Virus record (IMG/VR): IMGVR_UViG_2558860226_000001
Span: 36,780 to 100,779 of that record
Strand: one strand, 5' to 3'
Length of the DNA: 64,000 nt
From: a virus
Lineage: Duplodnaviria; Caudoviricetes
A program made the position numbers and the translations under genes. The notes beneath the pieces are model-generated. The model saw only the letters and a list, made by a program, of their open reading frames with translations. It had not been told where the DNA came from and did not search any database. Positions 12,819 through 15,193 of the stretch are shown here, piece after piece. The stretch's first letter is position 1, and each line of letters begins with the position of its first letter.

Positions 12819-12849
12819 TAAAAAACCCCAGCAATTGAGCTGGGGTTTG
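12819..12849 (-). terminator. tR'-like terminator upstream of lysis genes
   Basis: AAACCCCAGC...GCTGGGGTTT hairpin followed by T-run on minus strand. Confidence 0.6.
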
Positions 12850-12916
12850 AATTCTTTTTATTGCTACAAATAAATCCAGTACAATAACAACACGCAATTT
12901 CCGCATTGTTGTGCTT

Positions 12917-12944
12917 ATATTAACCAAATCTATTCAGGTGTCAA
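12917..12944 (-). promoter_or_regulatory. Probable late promoter pR'
   Basis: TTGACA-16 nt-TAATAT on minus strand just upstream of tR'. Confidence 0.5.
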
Positions 12945-12954
12945 TATATACAAA

Positions 12955-12977
12955 ATAAAAACCCCGCTGGAGCGGCG
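12955..12977 (-). terminator. Terminator after small acidic ORF
   Basis: CCGCTCCAGCGG hairpin followed by T-rich tail. Confidence 0.55.
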
Positions 12978-12997: not shown

Positions 12998-13179
12998 TTA
13001 TATGTTTTCTTCATCCAGAATCTCAACGATTTTCCCAGTTTTTTCTATCGGATTGCCATTCTCATCGCGCAAGTGGACATTAAGAGTCTCTCCGATAAAA
13101 TCATTCAGGTCGCCGTCGATTGTGTCTTCATTAACTGTACCAACGGTGTCATCATCCAGCAAAACTGTCCATTTTTCAT
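12998..13179 (-). CDS. Small acidic protein (~60 aa), candidate anti-CRISPR/anti-defence; 1-nt frameshift in A5 run after ATG
   Basis: SD-like AAGGG + ATG; adding one A gives MKKWTVLLDDDTVGTVNEDTIDGDLNDFIGETLNVHLRDENGNPIEKTGKIVEILDEENI; own promoter with Aca-type operator. Confidence 0.6.
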
Positions 13180-13231
13180 GATGTAGCCCTTATTTGTGAT
13201 TGAATGTGTGTCGCTTCGTCTTGATGGCTTC

Positions 13232-13260
13232 AATATAACCCCTTAATGGTTATGTGTCAA
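13232..13260 (-). promoter_or_regulatory. Sigma70 promoter with ATAACC-N7-GGTTAT operator (second copy)
   Basis: TTGACA-17-TATATT; inverted repeat 13235-13253. Confidence 0.8.
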
Positions 13261-13272
13261 CGTGCGGATGGT

Positions 13273-13455
13273 TTATTTTGTGACGGGTATCTCTCTTCTG
13301 ACGGTGCAGAGGAATGCCCTTCCATCATCGTCGATGTGGACTATCGTTTCAGACGATAGCCACTTTGTGATTTTTTGTGGTGGAACACCCATGTGGCGAG
13401 CGAATTCTGCCCGGCTACCGCCAAAATTCTGATCGATGTAATCGGCTAATTTCAT
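13273..13455 (-). CDS. aca5: Anti-CRISPR-associated HTH repressor, Aca5-like
   Basis: YIDQNFGGSRAEFARHMGV..KW...VRREIP resembles Aca5 as recalled; directly downstream of acrIF11-like gene. Confidence 0.8.
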   Translation of the reverse strand: MKLADYIDQNFGGSRAEFARHMGVPPQKITKWLSSETIVHIDDDGRAFLCTVRREIPVTK

Positions 13456-13456
13456 A

Positions 13457-13954
13457 TTATTCTGCCGTTATTTTTGGGTTAACGATTAAATAACTGGTGC
13501 CGTGCTCGTCTCTCATTTCTACAGCATCAAAACCAAGGTGCGCCGCAACGCGACCGCGTAGGCGTTGAATTTCCCACGAATATGCACCCCCGATATCAGA
13601 TCCGAGCCGAGGAAATAACAATACATCAGCAAATTCATCATCTTGATTTTCGTCATCAACTATTGCGCGGGCTAATTCATTAACTCTATCCATGTTTTCA
13701 GAATTAATTTCATATTGATCGAGCAGAAATCTTACTATCTCCTCAAAATTGGCATCCAAGTCGCGTGATTCAGCCACCCTTTCTTCATCAACAATATATG
13801 TAAAAATGTTACCGTTTCCGTGGGATGCCGCTGCGTCCCAGTCGCCGCTGGCAAAGATGCCATCAAATACGTTTTCGCTAGCACCGAGCATTTCGAATGC
13901 GCCAACTTTTATTGCTGGAGCTACGGTACTGCATGAGCCGTGAAACAGTTTCAT
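13457..13954 (-). CDS. acrIF11: AcrIF11-family anti-CRISPR ADP-ribosyltransferase
   Basis: MKLFHGS, F.G.F, ASHG, WEIQRLRG, AVEM.DEHGT motifs match AcrIF11 as recalled. Confidence 0.85.
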   Translation of the reverse strand: MKLFHGSCSTVAPAIKVGAFEMLGASENVFDGIFASGDWDAAASHGNGNIFTYIVDEERVAESRDLDANFEEIVRFLLDQYEINSENMDRVNELARAIVDDENQDDEFADVLLFPRLGSDIGGAYSWEIQRLRGRVAAHLGFDAVEMRDEHGTSYLIVNPKITAE

Positions 13955-13986
13955 TTTTTGGGCCTCAACCTCGTTTTGATGGCCTA

Positions 13987-14015
13987 ACTATAACCACTTT
14001 ATGGTTATACATCAA
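13987..14015 (-). promoter_or_regulatory. acr promoter with ATAACC-N7-GGTTAT operator
   Basis: TTGATG-17-TATAGT; inverted repeat 13990-14008. Confidence 0.8.
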
Positions 14016-14112: not shown

Positions 14113-14925
14113 TTAACTGGTAACGCGCCTCAAATTAATCTCTGCAGTTGATTCCGCCTGATGACACGCCGAAACGAGCCGCTCATACATCGGTTTTACA
14201 TGGCGTGACCATGTCGGCTGTGATATCTCAACGCCAGCGGCACATAGCGCCCTGCGGACGCTCTCAGCTGGCAATCGAGAGTATCCAGTGCCGTGGCACC
14301 GCTCACATTCTTTTGTCACCGGTATTCCGCCATTTATCGCTGTAGCCCGCTCATCAATCACAATTCCGCGTCCACGGCACCGGCATGAATTACTGACCAA
14401 CCCCCTTCCTTTGCAGGTCGGGCATTGCACACGGACTATCTCGCGCCGTTCGTGAGTAACATTGCAAGCTAGCGGTTTATCCAGCATTTCGATTTTCGGC
14501 ATAGCATCAATGACGCGTTTTCCATACGCCGCCTTCAGACTGAACACCTCCACGTCGATAAACCCATCATCGCAGTCAGGGCAACGCTTTACGCTTGCAG
14601 CACTACGCGCATAGTCATGATATGCAAATGTTGCGAGCAATTGCAGCGCTCGCAGTTTACTATCTGCATCGAGTTCTGAAAGAGGTTTGCAGTGTCCCGC
14701 CAGACTTTTTGCAATCTCTATCAACCCCTCAATGGCTTTATCAGGGCTGCTTACCCCGATTTTAGCGAGAAACAAATCCATCCCAATGCCGCTAGATTGG
14801 TGACTCATGCCGATAGCGGCCATCACATCACTGATACCTAATCTGTCGCTTGCTGTTGCCGGTGATTCGTCGGAGAGTTTTGGTGATTTCGGCGAGAAAA
14901 ATTTAGGAATTGATTCTAGATTCAC
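14113..14925 (-). CDS. Late antiterminator Q (lambda type)
   Basis: NLESIPKFFSPKS, YHDYARSAAS, repeated CxxCxG zinc motifs. Confidence 0.85.
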   Translation of the reverse strand: MNLESIPKFFSPKSPKLSDESPATASDRLGISDVMAAIGMSHQSSGIGMDLFLAKIGVSSPDKAIEGLIEIAKSLAGHCKPLSELDADSKLRALQLLATFAYHDYARSAASVKRCPDCDDGFIDVEVFSLKAAYGKRVIDAMPKIEMLDKPLACNVTHERREIVRVQCPTCKGRGLVSNSCRCRGRGIVIDERATAINGGIPVTKECERCHGTGYSRLPAESVRRALCAAGVEISQPTWSRHVKPMYERLVSACHQAESTAEINLRRVTS

Positions 14926-15193
14926 TTGGATTTCCTCCGCTCTGGATATGCATCCCATGACTGATAATGCGCCGGTTTAACCGCCGGAATTATTGGTGCA
15001 AACAAAGTCAGAATGTAAGGAAGATATTTCATGATTTATCACCCTTGTTCAGTGAGTATCGATTGATAATTTCCCGGCGGCGCTCATTTTTCCACTCAAT
15101 CGACTTTTCATGATCGGATATTTCTTTTTCCAGTCTAAGTAATTCCGCTGTCACATGCGTAGGGATTTTATCGATCATAATCCACCTCGGTAT

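What the first reader, a model, noticed from the sequence alone, without database searches (positions are those of the whole stretch)
12998..13260. Candidate new anti-CRISPR/anti-defence gene under a second, separate Aca5-type operator-promoter
Seen: right after aca5 the acr promoter architecture recurs. It reads TTGACA-17-TATATT with ATAACC-N7-GGTTAT and a GCCATCAA leader, versus TTGATG-17-TATAGT with the same operator and leader upstream of acrIF11. It drives an ORF missing from the ORF track, encoding a very acidic ~60-aa protein (MKKWTVLLDDDTVGTVNEDTIDGDLNDFIGETLNVHLRDENGNPIEKTGKIVEILDEENI) with its own terminator. As given, the sequence lacks one A in an A5 run after the ATG. Established: Aca proteins repress strong acr promoters through such inverted repeats, and many Acrs are small acidic DNA mimics. 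Inference: a two-promoter Aca5 regulon whose second gene sits downstream of aca and would be missed by searches upstream of aca. I do not recognise it as a named Acr.
Basis: partly seen in the sequence, partly recalled or inferred. Interest (0 to 1): 0.85.

Follow-up and report, generated by a model that had tools for sequence, protein, structure and literature searches.

The report
Second Aca5-controlled promoter, broken acidic gene
Right after the anti-CRISPR genes of a Dickeya prophage sits a second copy of their repressor-controlled promoter, driving a tiny, very acidic gene of an unstudied but widespread phage family that is a good, untested candidate for a new inhibitor of bacterial immunity, although this particular copy is broken by a one-base deletion.

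Summary
On the minus strand, Q is followed by P1 (operator ATAACC-N7-GGTTAT), acrIF11 and aca5. Then comes P2 (TTGACA-17-TATATT, same operator), a 60-codon acidic gene and a weak terminator. The operator occurs only twice in the 100.8-kb virus record (0.1 expected).

The gene is real. Two related phages carry it intact with A6 where the window has A5. Profile searches find hundreds of related small, uniformly acidic proteins with no match to any named family or solved structure. AlphaFold gives a confident small beta-barrel.

The A5 frameshift is present in two deposited assemblies of the host (Dickeya poaceiphila NCPPB 569), so it is probably a true, recent inactivation.

P2 recurs after aca5 in 5 of 7 loci examined, with three different cargo genes. 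Distant homologues often sit directly upstream of unrelated small HTH or RHH regulators, the classic acr-aca layout.

The most likely reading is an Aca5-repressed second cargo slot holding an anti-defence (possibly anti-CRISPR) gene. Function and Aca5 binding are untested.

Dual upstream and downstream promoters are proven for Aca11 and Aca13. A 2026 survey named Aca5 as one of two families without such a case. This is therefore a new member of a known kind.

Earlier notes from this scan flagged the same stretch, and two-operator Aca5 repressors on IncI2 plasmids.

The parts
14113..14958 (-). Q-type late antiterminator gene (281 aa), immediately upstream of the acr locus
   Evidence: Pfam PF03589 Antiterm, 130 bits
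13987..14015 (-). P1: acr promoter TTGATG-17-TATAGT with the Aca5-type operator ATAACC-N7-GGTTAT at 13990-14008
   Evidence: Sequence; promoter scan 9/12; operator pattern search; aligns with P1 of four other aca5 loci
13457..13954 (-). acrIF11 homologue (165 aa), an ADP-ribosyltransferase anti-CRISPR
   Evidence: NCBIfam NF052490 AcrIF11_anti, equivalog, 116 bits against a cut-off of 50; PDB 6kyf AcrF11, E 3.5e-10
13273..13455 (-). aca5 homologue (60 aa HTH repressor)
   Evidence: 60% identical to the L041 protein. That protein is letter for letter WP_100849903.1, listed as an Aca5 homologue in Pinilla-Redondo 2020 supplementary data. Weak HTH_28/HTH_3/YdaS Pfam hits.
13232..13260 (-). P2: second promoter TTGACA-17-TATATT with operator ATAACC-N7-GGTTAT at 13235-13253. 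It starts 12 nt after the aca5 stop codon, with no terminator in between.
   Evidence: Sequence; promoter scan 11/12; operator search; conserved in L001, L002, L041 and L044
13180..13231 (-). 5' leader of the P2 transcript. It includes the conserved GCCATCAAGAC (13218-13228) and the Shine-Dalgarno AAGGG (13187-13191). No stable RNA fold is predicted.
   Evidence: Alignment of ten promoter regions; RNA fold -3.2 kcal/mol, z -0.6
12998..13179 (-). Acidic small-protein gene, frameshifted. ATG is at 13179-13177 and the A5 run at 13172-13176 (A6 in relatives). The conserved frame is open from 13162 (54 aa).
   Evidence: ORF list. Intact 60-aa orthologues P0002/L001 and L002 = WP_033576142.1. Substitutions against L001 are 5 synonymous to 1 non-synonymous. 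AlphaFold pLDDT 92.
12952..12973 (-). Short hairpin plus U run: a weak intrinsic terminator after the acidic gene
   Evidence: Terminator scan; folds (the L001 counterpart is stronger)
12917..12944 (-). Next promoter-like site (TTGACA-16-TAATAT), followed by a strong terminator at 12823-12848 and the lysis genes. Inferred to be the Q-dependent late promoter region. It marks the downstream border of the inserted acr module.
   Evidence: Promoter/terminator scan; holin-like and lysis ORFs downstream. The late-promoter reading rests on analogy with lambda PR'-tR'.

Best explanation
The lambdoid prophage of Dickeya poaceiphila NCPPB 569 carries an anti-defence module between Q and the late promoter. 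P1 drives acrIF11 and the repressor gene aca5. Twelve bases after aca5, a second and stronger promoter (P2) carries the same inverted-repeat operator across its spacer and -10 hexamer.

Inferred mechanism: on entry into a cell both promoters fire. As Aca5 accumulates it binds both operators and shuts both down. The P2 gene is therefore expressed in the same early burst as the anti-CRISPR. Because no terminator separates aca5 from P2, Aca5 bound at P2 could also block read-through from P1.

The P2 gene encodes a 60-residue, very acidic (net charge -11, pI about 4) small beta-barrel protein. Its family is uncharacterised and widespread in phages and plasmids. The most likely role is a stoichiometric inhibitor of a host defence system: an anti-CRISPR or another anti-defence protein, possibly acting as a nucleic-acid mimic.

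In this genome the gene has lost one A of an A6 run at codons 2-3. Translation from the proper ATG therefore ends after 24 codons. At best a 54-residue product lacking the first beta-strand could be made from an internal TTG. This copy is probably a recently inactivated gene.

Shown: the sequence architecture, its conservation, the reality of the gene family, and the frameshift. Inferred: Aca5 binding at P2, the timing of expression, and the anti-defence function.
For: Operator and promoter:
- The operator occurs twice in 64 kb against 0.10 expected. It occurs nowhere else in the 100.8-kb record.
- It has the same layout as the published Aca5 motif, with one symmetric base change per half-site.
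- P2 matches the consensus at 11 of 12 positions.

Conservation of P2:
- P2 with its operator follows aca5 in 5 of 7 aca5 loci examined.
- The cargo is the acidic gene in the window, L001 and L002, a 171-aa gene in D. dadantii L044/L045, and a 103-aa gene in L041.
- L002 and L044 share the flanking genes, so the P2 cargo behaves as a swappable cassette.
- P1 and P2 keep distinct leader variants across loci. P2 is therefore an established element, not a one-off duplication.

Validated Acr families in the P1 operons of these loci:
- AcrIF11 in the window.
- AcrIF20 and AcrIF17 orthologues in L002, and an AcrIF22-like gene in L001.

The gene is real:
- Intact 60-aa orthologues exist at 96-98% identity.
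- A profile search gave 341 representatives at E<=1e-3, most of the listed ones 50-90 aa.
- The AlphaFold model has pLDDT 92.4.
- Substitutions are 5 synonymous to 1 non-synonymous.
- The family is uniformly acidic, with median pI 4.2.

Guilt by association:
- Distant homologues lie directly upstream of unrelated small regulators: HTH_31 (L007), HTH_3 (L013/L014, L016), and an RHH-like protein plus KorA (L012).
- Weaker cases are NikA-like RHH (L003) and HTH_3/MqsA-like (L033).
- P0070 is an in-frame fusion of the same RHH-like module to the family domain.

Other points:
- The host has type I-F cas (Csy3, 492 bits) and CRISPR arrays.
- A5 is present in two deposited assemblies.
Against: - No experiment and no homology to any protein of known function supports it.
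- Small acidic phage proteins under early promoters also include host-takeover and regulatory factors.
- Only about a quarter to a half of the distant homologue contexts show an adjacent regulator. No matched control set was counted.
- Family members occur in hosts as distant as a Fibrobacter MAG and in Klebsiella IncHI1B/FIB plasmids among anonymous small genes. This argues against a target limited to type I-F CRISPR-Cas.
- The copy in this window is broken while acrIF11 is intact, so the function is dispensable in this lysogen.
- A named-Acr database was not available. NCBIfam also failed to recognise the AcrIF17, AcrIF20 and AcrIF22 orthologues, so its silence is weak evidence that the protein is unnamed.
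Confidence: 0.55

Rival explanations
1. The acidic protein is a regulatory or host-takeover factor, not an immunity inhibitor. For example, it could be a DNA mimic or antirepressor that binds DNA-binding proteins (Aca5 itself or host nucleoid or transcription proteins) and tunes early expression.
For: - It is recurrently adjacent to small DNA-binding proteins and occasionally fused to one.
- Aca5's closest solved relative, according to Shehreen 2022, is a repressor in a repressor-antirepressor complex.
- The fold is SH3/Tudor/KOW-like, and the weak structural neighbours include KorB-C and T7 Gp2 (Z about 3).
Against: - The neighbouring regulators belong to structurally unrelated families (Aca5-type HTH, XRE HTH, KorA, RHH). 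This fits modular acr-aca pairing better than a specific protein partner.
- Many homologues have no regulator nearby.
- The structural matches are at noise level.
Confidence: 0.15
2. P2 is a by-product of cassette shuffling at the conserved acr promoter and has no special regulatory meaning. The gene is an ordinary prophage accessory gene (moron) of unrelated function.
For: - acr-aca5 loci are known to recombine and shuffle (Pinilla-Redondo 2020).
- P1 and P2 are about 80% alike, including the leader.
- The gene is dispensable here because of the frameshift.
- 2 of 7 aca5 loci lack P2.
Against: - The operator is kept intact (0-1 mismatch) in P2 of five loci, with three different cargo genes.
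- P2-specific leader features are shared across loci. Such conservation is not expected for a neutral relic.
- Repression is a direct physical consequence of an operator overlapping the -10, provided Aca5 binds it at P1.
Confidence: 0.12
3. The protein is an antitoxin-like decoy or part of a toxin-antitoxin-type module. One UniRef record labels a family member DUF2283.
For: - The UniRef name of P0024 is 'DUF2283 domain-containing protein'.
- The protein is small and acidic, like many antitoxins.
- Regulators such as MqsA-like and HicB-like proteins lie nearby in some loci.
Against: - Pfam finds no DUF2283 match in any of 64 members, even at E 10 for eight of them.
- Profile-profile comparison with a DUF2283 alignment gives probability 0.6%.
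- No toxin-like partner is present in the window, L001 or L002, where the gene stands alone between P2 and a terminator.
Confidence: 0.06
4. The missing A is a homopolymer sequencing error, and the gene is intact and functional in the living strain.
For: - Homopolymer indels are the commonest assembly error.
- The rest of the ORF is undamaged and shows a purifying-selection pattern.
- Both close relatives have A6.
Against: Two separately deposited assemblies (GCA_000406125.1 and GCA_007858975.2, with chromosome lengths of 4.21 and 4.32 Mb) are identical over 3165 nt and both show A5. Raw reads of the source were not available to check.
Confidence: 0.22

Closest known systems
Aca11 and Aca13 dual-promoter acr loci of Streptococcus prophages (Song et al., NAR 2025, PMC12282945)
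   Same: An aca gene is flanked by acr genes on both sides. The upstream and downstream promoters each carry the same inverted repeat between -35 and -10, and one Aca represses both. In that work the inverted repeat was used to find a new Acr.
   Different: - The repressor family (Aca5) and the host clade (Enterobacterales, type I-F) differ.
- Binding at P2 is not tested here.
- The downstream cargo there is a proven Acr. Here it is an uncharacterised family.
acr-aca5 operons of Pectobacterium, Serratia, Klebsiella and Dickeya prophages (Marino 2018; Pinilla-Redondo 2020, PMC7648647; Shehreen 2022, PMC9410906)
   Same: - The same repressor family and the same position downstream of acrIF11 or other type I-F acr genes.
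- The same kind of promoter-embedded inverted repeat. The published motif is ATAATCAATTTTTGATTATA, against ATAACC-N7-GGTTAT here.
- The same prophage slot after Q.
   Different: Published work looked only upstream of aca5 and described one promoter per locus. The operator half-site here differs by one base (T to C).
Predicted Aca regulation of neighbouring anti-defence operons, including RHH-type Aca14 (NAR 2026, PMC13551039)
   Same: It states the general principle that one Aca controls its own operon and adjacent operons holding candidate anti-defence genes. RHH proteins can take the Aca role, as seen next to several distant homologues here.
   Different: That survey found such examples for every Aca family except Aca5 and Aca7. 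The present locus and its four relatives supply the missing Aca5 case.
Small acidic anti-CRISPR and anti-restriction proteins acting as DNA mimics (e.g. AcrIF2, AcrIF10, AcrIIA4, Ocr, ArdA; recalled from general knowledge)
   Same: Small size, strong negative charge, an early strong promoter, and carriage on mobile elements.
   Different: There is no sequence or fold similarity to any of them in the PDB searches. Mimicry is only a hypothesis from the charge.

Membership tests
Aca5 (the 60-aa HTH at 13273-13455) | Sequence homology to the Aca5 reference set | tested here: met
   60% identity over the full length to the L041 protein. That protein is identical to WP_100849903.1 in the published Aca5 homologue list. 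There are 23 invariant columns across seven homologues.
Aca5 (the 60-aa HTH at 13273-13455) | Encoded directly downstream of a known acr gene in a mobile element | tested here: met
   It starts 1 nt after the acrIF11 stop, in a prophage between Q and the lysis genes.
Aca5 (the 60-aa HTH at 13273-13455) | Inverted-repeat operator inside the acr promoter resembling the published Aca5 motif | tested here: met
   ATAACC-N7-GGTTAT spans the spacer and -10 of P1. The published motif is ATAATCAATTTTTGATTATA.
Aca5 (the 60-aa HTH at 13273-13455) | Binds the operator and represses transcription | not testable with these tools
   Needs an EMSA or reporter assay.
Aca-controlled adjacent operon (Aca11/Aca13 type) - P2 | The same inverted repeat as the cognate acr promoter, placed between -35 and -10 of a second promoter next to aca | tested here: met
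   Conserved in L001, L002, L041 and L044.
Aca-controlled adjacent operon (Aca11/Aca13 type) - P2 | Repression of the second promoter by the Aca protein | not testable with these tools
Anti-CRISPR (Acr) - the acidic protein | Inhibits a CRISPR-Cas system | not testable with these tools
   Requires phage or plasmid targeting assays.
Anti-CRISPR (Acr) - the acidic protein | Small protein on a mobile element, genetically linked to an aca gene or Aca operator | tested here: met
   60 aa, under the Aca5-type operator in three phages. Distant homologues lie upstream of HTH or RHH genes.
Anti-CRISPR (Acr) - the acidic protein | Homology to a named Acr family | tested here: not met
   - No hit in NCBIfam, Pfam, PHROGs or PDB sequences.
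- The motif is absent from the supplementary sequences of the aca5 screen.
- Caveat: no dedicated Acr database was searched, and NCBIfam misses several Acr families.
AcrIF11 (the 165-aa protein at 13457-13954) | Match to the curated AcrIF11 family model above its cut-off | tested here: met
   NF052490, 116.2 bits against 50. PF26151 is listed for the same gene.
DUF2283 (PF10049) - the acidic protein | Match to the family profile | tested here: not met
   - No Pfam hit at E<=0.01 in any of the 64 members.
- No hit at E up to 10 in the eight members scanned again.
- The genome search of G004 found no match.
- hhalign probability is 0.6%.

The most novel reading that the evidence does not exclude
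Aca5 runs a two-promoter regulon whose second, downstream slot is a swappable cargo site. The 60-aa acidic protein would then be the founding member of a new, broadly distributed anti-defence family: a new anti-CRISPR type, or a DNA or protein mimic acting on a widespread defence. The 171-aa and 103-aa proteins found in the same slot in other Dickeya prophages would be further unknown inhibitors.
Probability: 0.4. Interest if true: 0.75.

Novelty: new member of a known kind. Interest (0 to 1): 0.6.

Why it matters
Anti-CRISPR discovery by guilt-by-association has looked almost only upstream of aca genes. Here a conserved Aca5 operator marks a second expression slot downstream of aca5, and that slot has been skipped. 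Aca5 is one of only two Aca families for which a recent survey found no neighbouring regulated operon.

The slot gives three concrete, cheap-to-test candidate inhibitors. It also gives a simple search rule: the operator motif within about 100 nt after aca5.

The acidic protein belongs to a family with hundreds of diverged members in phages and plasmids and no annotation. A single positive assay would therefore annotate a large family.

The broken copy in NCPPB 569 is a reminder that such cargo is gained and lost quickly.

Tried and rejected
- Near-identity DNA searches of the locus in the phage and E. coli collections found nothing. A protein search of the phage collection also found nothing.
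No RNA holder was listed. The only runs laid were contigs of relatives, one of which is the L001 contig and merely re-showed A6.
- Fold searches gave only weak, generic small beta-barrel matches. These were Foldseek against PDB, VIA-align wide (best Z 3.5) and BFVD (only uncharacterised phage proteins).
- The ESM Atlas gave no usable hit.
- The genome-contig scan was swamped by the short DENGNPIE-like pattern and gave only two loci.
- Long surface proteins among the profile hits match only the 'V-x-L-x-D-E-N-G-N-P-I' hairpin, as in Big/invasin repeats. They were set aside as motif matches, not relatives.
- N- or C-terminally extended family members gave no informative domains.
- The Klebsiella and E. 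coli plasmid contexts are anonymous small genes.
- The DUF2283 relationship was rejected.
- The 17 spacers of the two type I-F arrays next to cas in the host have no match of 18 nt or more in the 100.8-kb virus record. Other arrays were not searched.
- A third exact operator match in the host chromosome has no promoter context and is about what chance predicts. My own rough estimate is about 0.26 sites per 4.3 Mb.
- A degenerate promoter-operator pattern scan of IMG/VR mostly returned unrelated phages.
- Literature searches for the protein accession or its motif found nothing.

Full report
**Anatomy**

All genes of interest are on the minus strand.
- A Q-type antiterminator lies at 14958-14113 (PF03589).
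- P1 follows: TTGATG-17-TATAGT at 14015-13987. It has a perfect inverted repeat, ATAACC-N7-GGTTAT, at 14008-13990.
- Next is a 165-aa AcrIF11 homologue at 13954-13457. It scores 116 bits against the NCBIfam AcrIF11 equivalog (cut-off 50) and matches PDB 6kyf.
- One base later comes a 60-aa HTH gene at 13455-13273.
- Twelve bases after its stop codon, with no terminator, lies P2: TTGACA-17-TATATT at 13260-13232, 11 of 12 consensus positions.
- P2 carries the same repeat at 13253-13235, and the 3' half-site overlaps the -10 hexamer.
- A 52-nt unstructured leader follows, then a Shine-Dalgarno AAGGG and an ATG at 13179.

**Is the operator more than chance?**
- The exact operator, even with one mismatch allowed, occurs only at these two places in the window. 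The expectation is 0.10, and none of 100 shuffles reached two.
- It occurs only there in the whole 100.8-kb virus record.
- In the 4.3-Mb host chromosome there is one further exact match. It has no promoter context and is about what chance predicts by my own rough estimate.

**The repressor is Aca5**
- The HTH protein is 60% identical to the one in locus L041.
- The L041 protein is letter for letter WP_100849903.1, a Dickeya fangzhongdai protein in the published list of Aca5 homologues.
- The published Aca5 DNA motif is ATAATCAATTTTTGATTATA (Shehreen 2022 supplement). It has the same spacing and the same position in the promoter. Each half-site differs symmetrically at one base from the operator here.
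- ATAACC-N7-GGTTAT is therefore best read as the operator of the Dickeya branch of Aca5.

**The ORF and the frameshift**
- From ATG 13179 the reading frame closes after 24 codons.
- The conserved frame is open only from TTG 13162 (54 aa).
- A search with those 54 residues found a 60-aa protein, P0002, beginning MKKWTVLLDDD.
- Its DNA (L001, a 43.7-kb phage contig) reads atgaaaaaatgg where the window reads atgaaaaatgg.
- An IMG/VR provirus (L002) has the same A6. Its protein is WP_033576142.1, 'hypothetical protein' of Dickeya chrysanthemi.
- More distant homologues keep the N-terminal strand (YTVxL). In the AlphaFold model (pLDDT 92.4) residues 2-8 form the first beta-strand. The 54-aa product would lack a structural element.
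- The window copy differs from L001 by 5 synonymous and 1 non-synonymous changes over 54 codons. The gene was under purifying selection until recently.
- The same A5 is present in two separately deposited assemblies, GCA_000406125.1 and GCA_007858975.2. They are identical to the window over 3165 nt.
- The second assembly is CP042220, Dickeya poaceiphila NCPPB 569T.
- I therefore read the frameshift as probably real (about 75%), not a sequencing slip. Raw reads could not be examined.

**The two-promoter layout is conserved and its second slot is variable**

I examined seven aca5 loci.
- L001: P1, an AcrIF22-like 96-aa gene, a 101-aa gene, aca5, P2, the acidic gene.
- L002 (D. chrysanthemi): P1, an AcrIF20 orthologue (WP_033576137.1), a 185-aa gene, an AcrIF17 orthologue (WP_033576139.1), a 114-aa gene, aca5, P2, the acidic gene.
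- L044/L045 (D. dadantii): P1, acrIF11, aca5, P2, an unrelated 171-aa gene.
- L041: P1, a 76-aa gene, aca5, P2 (one operator mismatch, TTGAGT/TATAAT), a 103-aa gene.
- L077 (acrIF11-aca5 followed by a terminator) and L042/L043 (aca5 at the end of a helicase-methyltransferase operon) have no P2.

L002 and L044 share the genes that flank the P2 cargo, at 75-78% identity. The cargo has therefore been exchanged in place.

An alignment of the ten promoter regions shows invariant TTGA, ATAAC, GGTTATA and CA-C positions. It also shows leader variants specific to P1 (CATCGAAACGAG) and to P2 (CATCAAGAC) that hold across loci. P2 is thus an old, maintained element rather than a local accident.

**The protein family**
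- A profile of the first eight homologues, searched against 1.84 billion cluster representatives, gave 341 hits at E<=1e-3.
- About 110 of the 150 listed hits are proteins of 45-145 aa that align end to end. Some 40 are long repeat proteins that match only the central hairpin motif. I set those aside.
- The small proteins are uniformly acidic: median pI 4.2, median net charge -8. The 60-aa form has charge -11.
- None matches Pfam, NCBIfam or PHROGs. A profile search of all PDB sequences found nothing credible.
- The model is a small SH3/Tudor-like beta-barrel. It has no structural neighbour above Z 3.5 in the PDB and only uncharacterised phage proteins in BFVD.
- One UniRef label (DUF2283) for a member could not be reproduced by Pfam or by profile-profile comparison, which gave probability 0.6%.

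**Context of distant homologues**

In IMG/VR and metagenome loci, the homologue is often the first gene behind a promoter and is directly followed by a small DNA-binding protein of varying family.
- HTH_31 in L007.
- HTH_3 in L013/L014 and in L016.
- An RHH-like 145-aa protein plus a KorA-type repressor in L012.
- A NikA-like RHH in L003 (weak).
- An HTH_3/MqsA-like protein two genes on in L033 (weak).
- An HTH_26 protein just upstream in L019.

One cluster (P0070) is an in-frame fusion of the same RHH-like module seen downstream in L012 to the family domain.

This is the canonical acr-aca arrangement, including its known fused form. However, roughly half of the contexts show no regulator, and I did not count a control set.

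Homologues also occur on 47 Klebsiella, E. coli, Vibrio and Pseudomonas plasmids among anonymous small genes, and in a Fibrobacter MAG.

**What is known already**
- Pinilla-Redondo et al. (2020) screened only small genes upstream of aca5.
- Song et al. (2025) showed that Aca11 and Aca13 repress both an upstream and a downstream acr promoter through the same inverted repeat. They called this arrangement distinct from other Aca families.
- The present locus and its relatives supply the Aca5 case. The principle is therefore known; the member and its cargo family are new.

**Host**

The NCPPB 569 chromosome encodes Csy3 (492 bits) and two type I-F arrays beside the cas genes. None of their 17 spacers matches the virus record.

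**Verdict**
- The regulatory reading is well supported by comparative evidence but untested.
- The anti-defence role is a reasonable inference (about 55%; anti-CRISPR specifically about a third).
- The copy in this window is most likely a fresh pseudogene.

Noticed in passing
window 12823-12944 (minus strand): Directly after the acidic gene's terminator there is a promoter-like site (TTGACA-16-TAATAT, 12944-12917). About 70 nt later comes a strong 10-bp-stem terminator (12848-12823), just before the holin-like gene. This looks like a lambda-type PR'/short leader RNA/tR' unit, so the whole acr module sits between Q and its target promoter.
   Followed up: partly
window 13218-13228 and 13973-13983; L001, L002, L041, L044 promoter regions: The first ~12 transcribed bases are conserved in both promoters across loci, regardless of cargo. 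P1 reads CATCGAAACGAG and P2 reads CATCAAGAC. No RNA structure is predicted. The role is unknown: initial transcribed sequence, a second Aca5 contact, or an RNA-level site.
   Followed up: partly
L044:3273-3788 and L041:3286-3597: Two other genes occupy the P2 slot in Dickeya prophages: 171 aa in D. dadantii and 103 aa in an IMG/VR provirus. Neither has any Pfam or NCBIfam match. They are further untested anti-defence candidates.
   Followed up: partly
L042:499-3195 and L043: An aca5 homologue (77% identical) closes an operon that encodes a ResIII/DEAD helicase, an N6_N4 DNA methyltransferase and a 114-aa protein. The 114-aa protein is 66% identical to the gene just upstream of aca5 in L002. 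No ATAACC-N7-GGTTAT operator was found within the fetched 3 kb.
   Followed up: no
P0070 / P0061 and L012:3161-3598: An RHH-like module (…RVPAATKxRWVRxSRAAGMRLTDWI…) is fused in frame to the N-terminus of the acidic-family domain in one protein cluster. In L012 the same module is encoded as the next gene after the family member, followed by a KorA-type repressor.
   Followed up: partly
L022:3001-3425: A marine phage contig has the family member directly followed by an 81-aa protein with the same motif pattern (YTAKLHNGTAGEL…VKLRDENGIP). This is an apparent tandem paralogue, inside a run of small genes that is absent from the related contig L021.
   Followed up: no
L011 / L081 (pLVPK NC_005249.1 107154-107318 and 46 other plasmids): A 54-aa homologue (WP_011154586.1, 50% identity) is conserved on large IncHI1B/IncFIB Klebsiella and E. 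coli plasmids. It lies in a three-gene cluster of tiny hypothetical genes near a hok toxin gene.
   Followed up: partly
G004:C1:2593803-2593821 (L087:1501-1519): This is the third exact ATAACC-N7-GGTTAT site in the host chromosome. It lies in an intergenic region beside an ABC-transporter operon, without a matching -35/-10. It is probably chance.
   Followed up: partly
G004:C1 about 770300-771000 and 779500-780000 (L114): The host carries an intact type I-F system (Csy3 at 777880-778851). Two arrays (11 and 8 repeats) have slightly different repeat variants. None of the 17 spacers matches the 100.8-kb virus record.
   Followed up: yes
L049-L072 (IMG/VR contigs): Many unrelated environmental phage contigs have strong promoters of the form TTGACAnATAACCC-N5-GGGTTATAAT. 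This is a similar half-site in the same promoter position, but without an aca5 homologue in the fetched stretch. It may be the operator of another repressor family.
   Followed up: no
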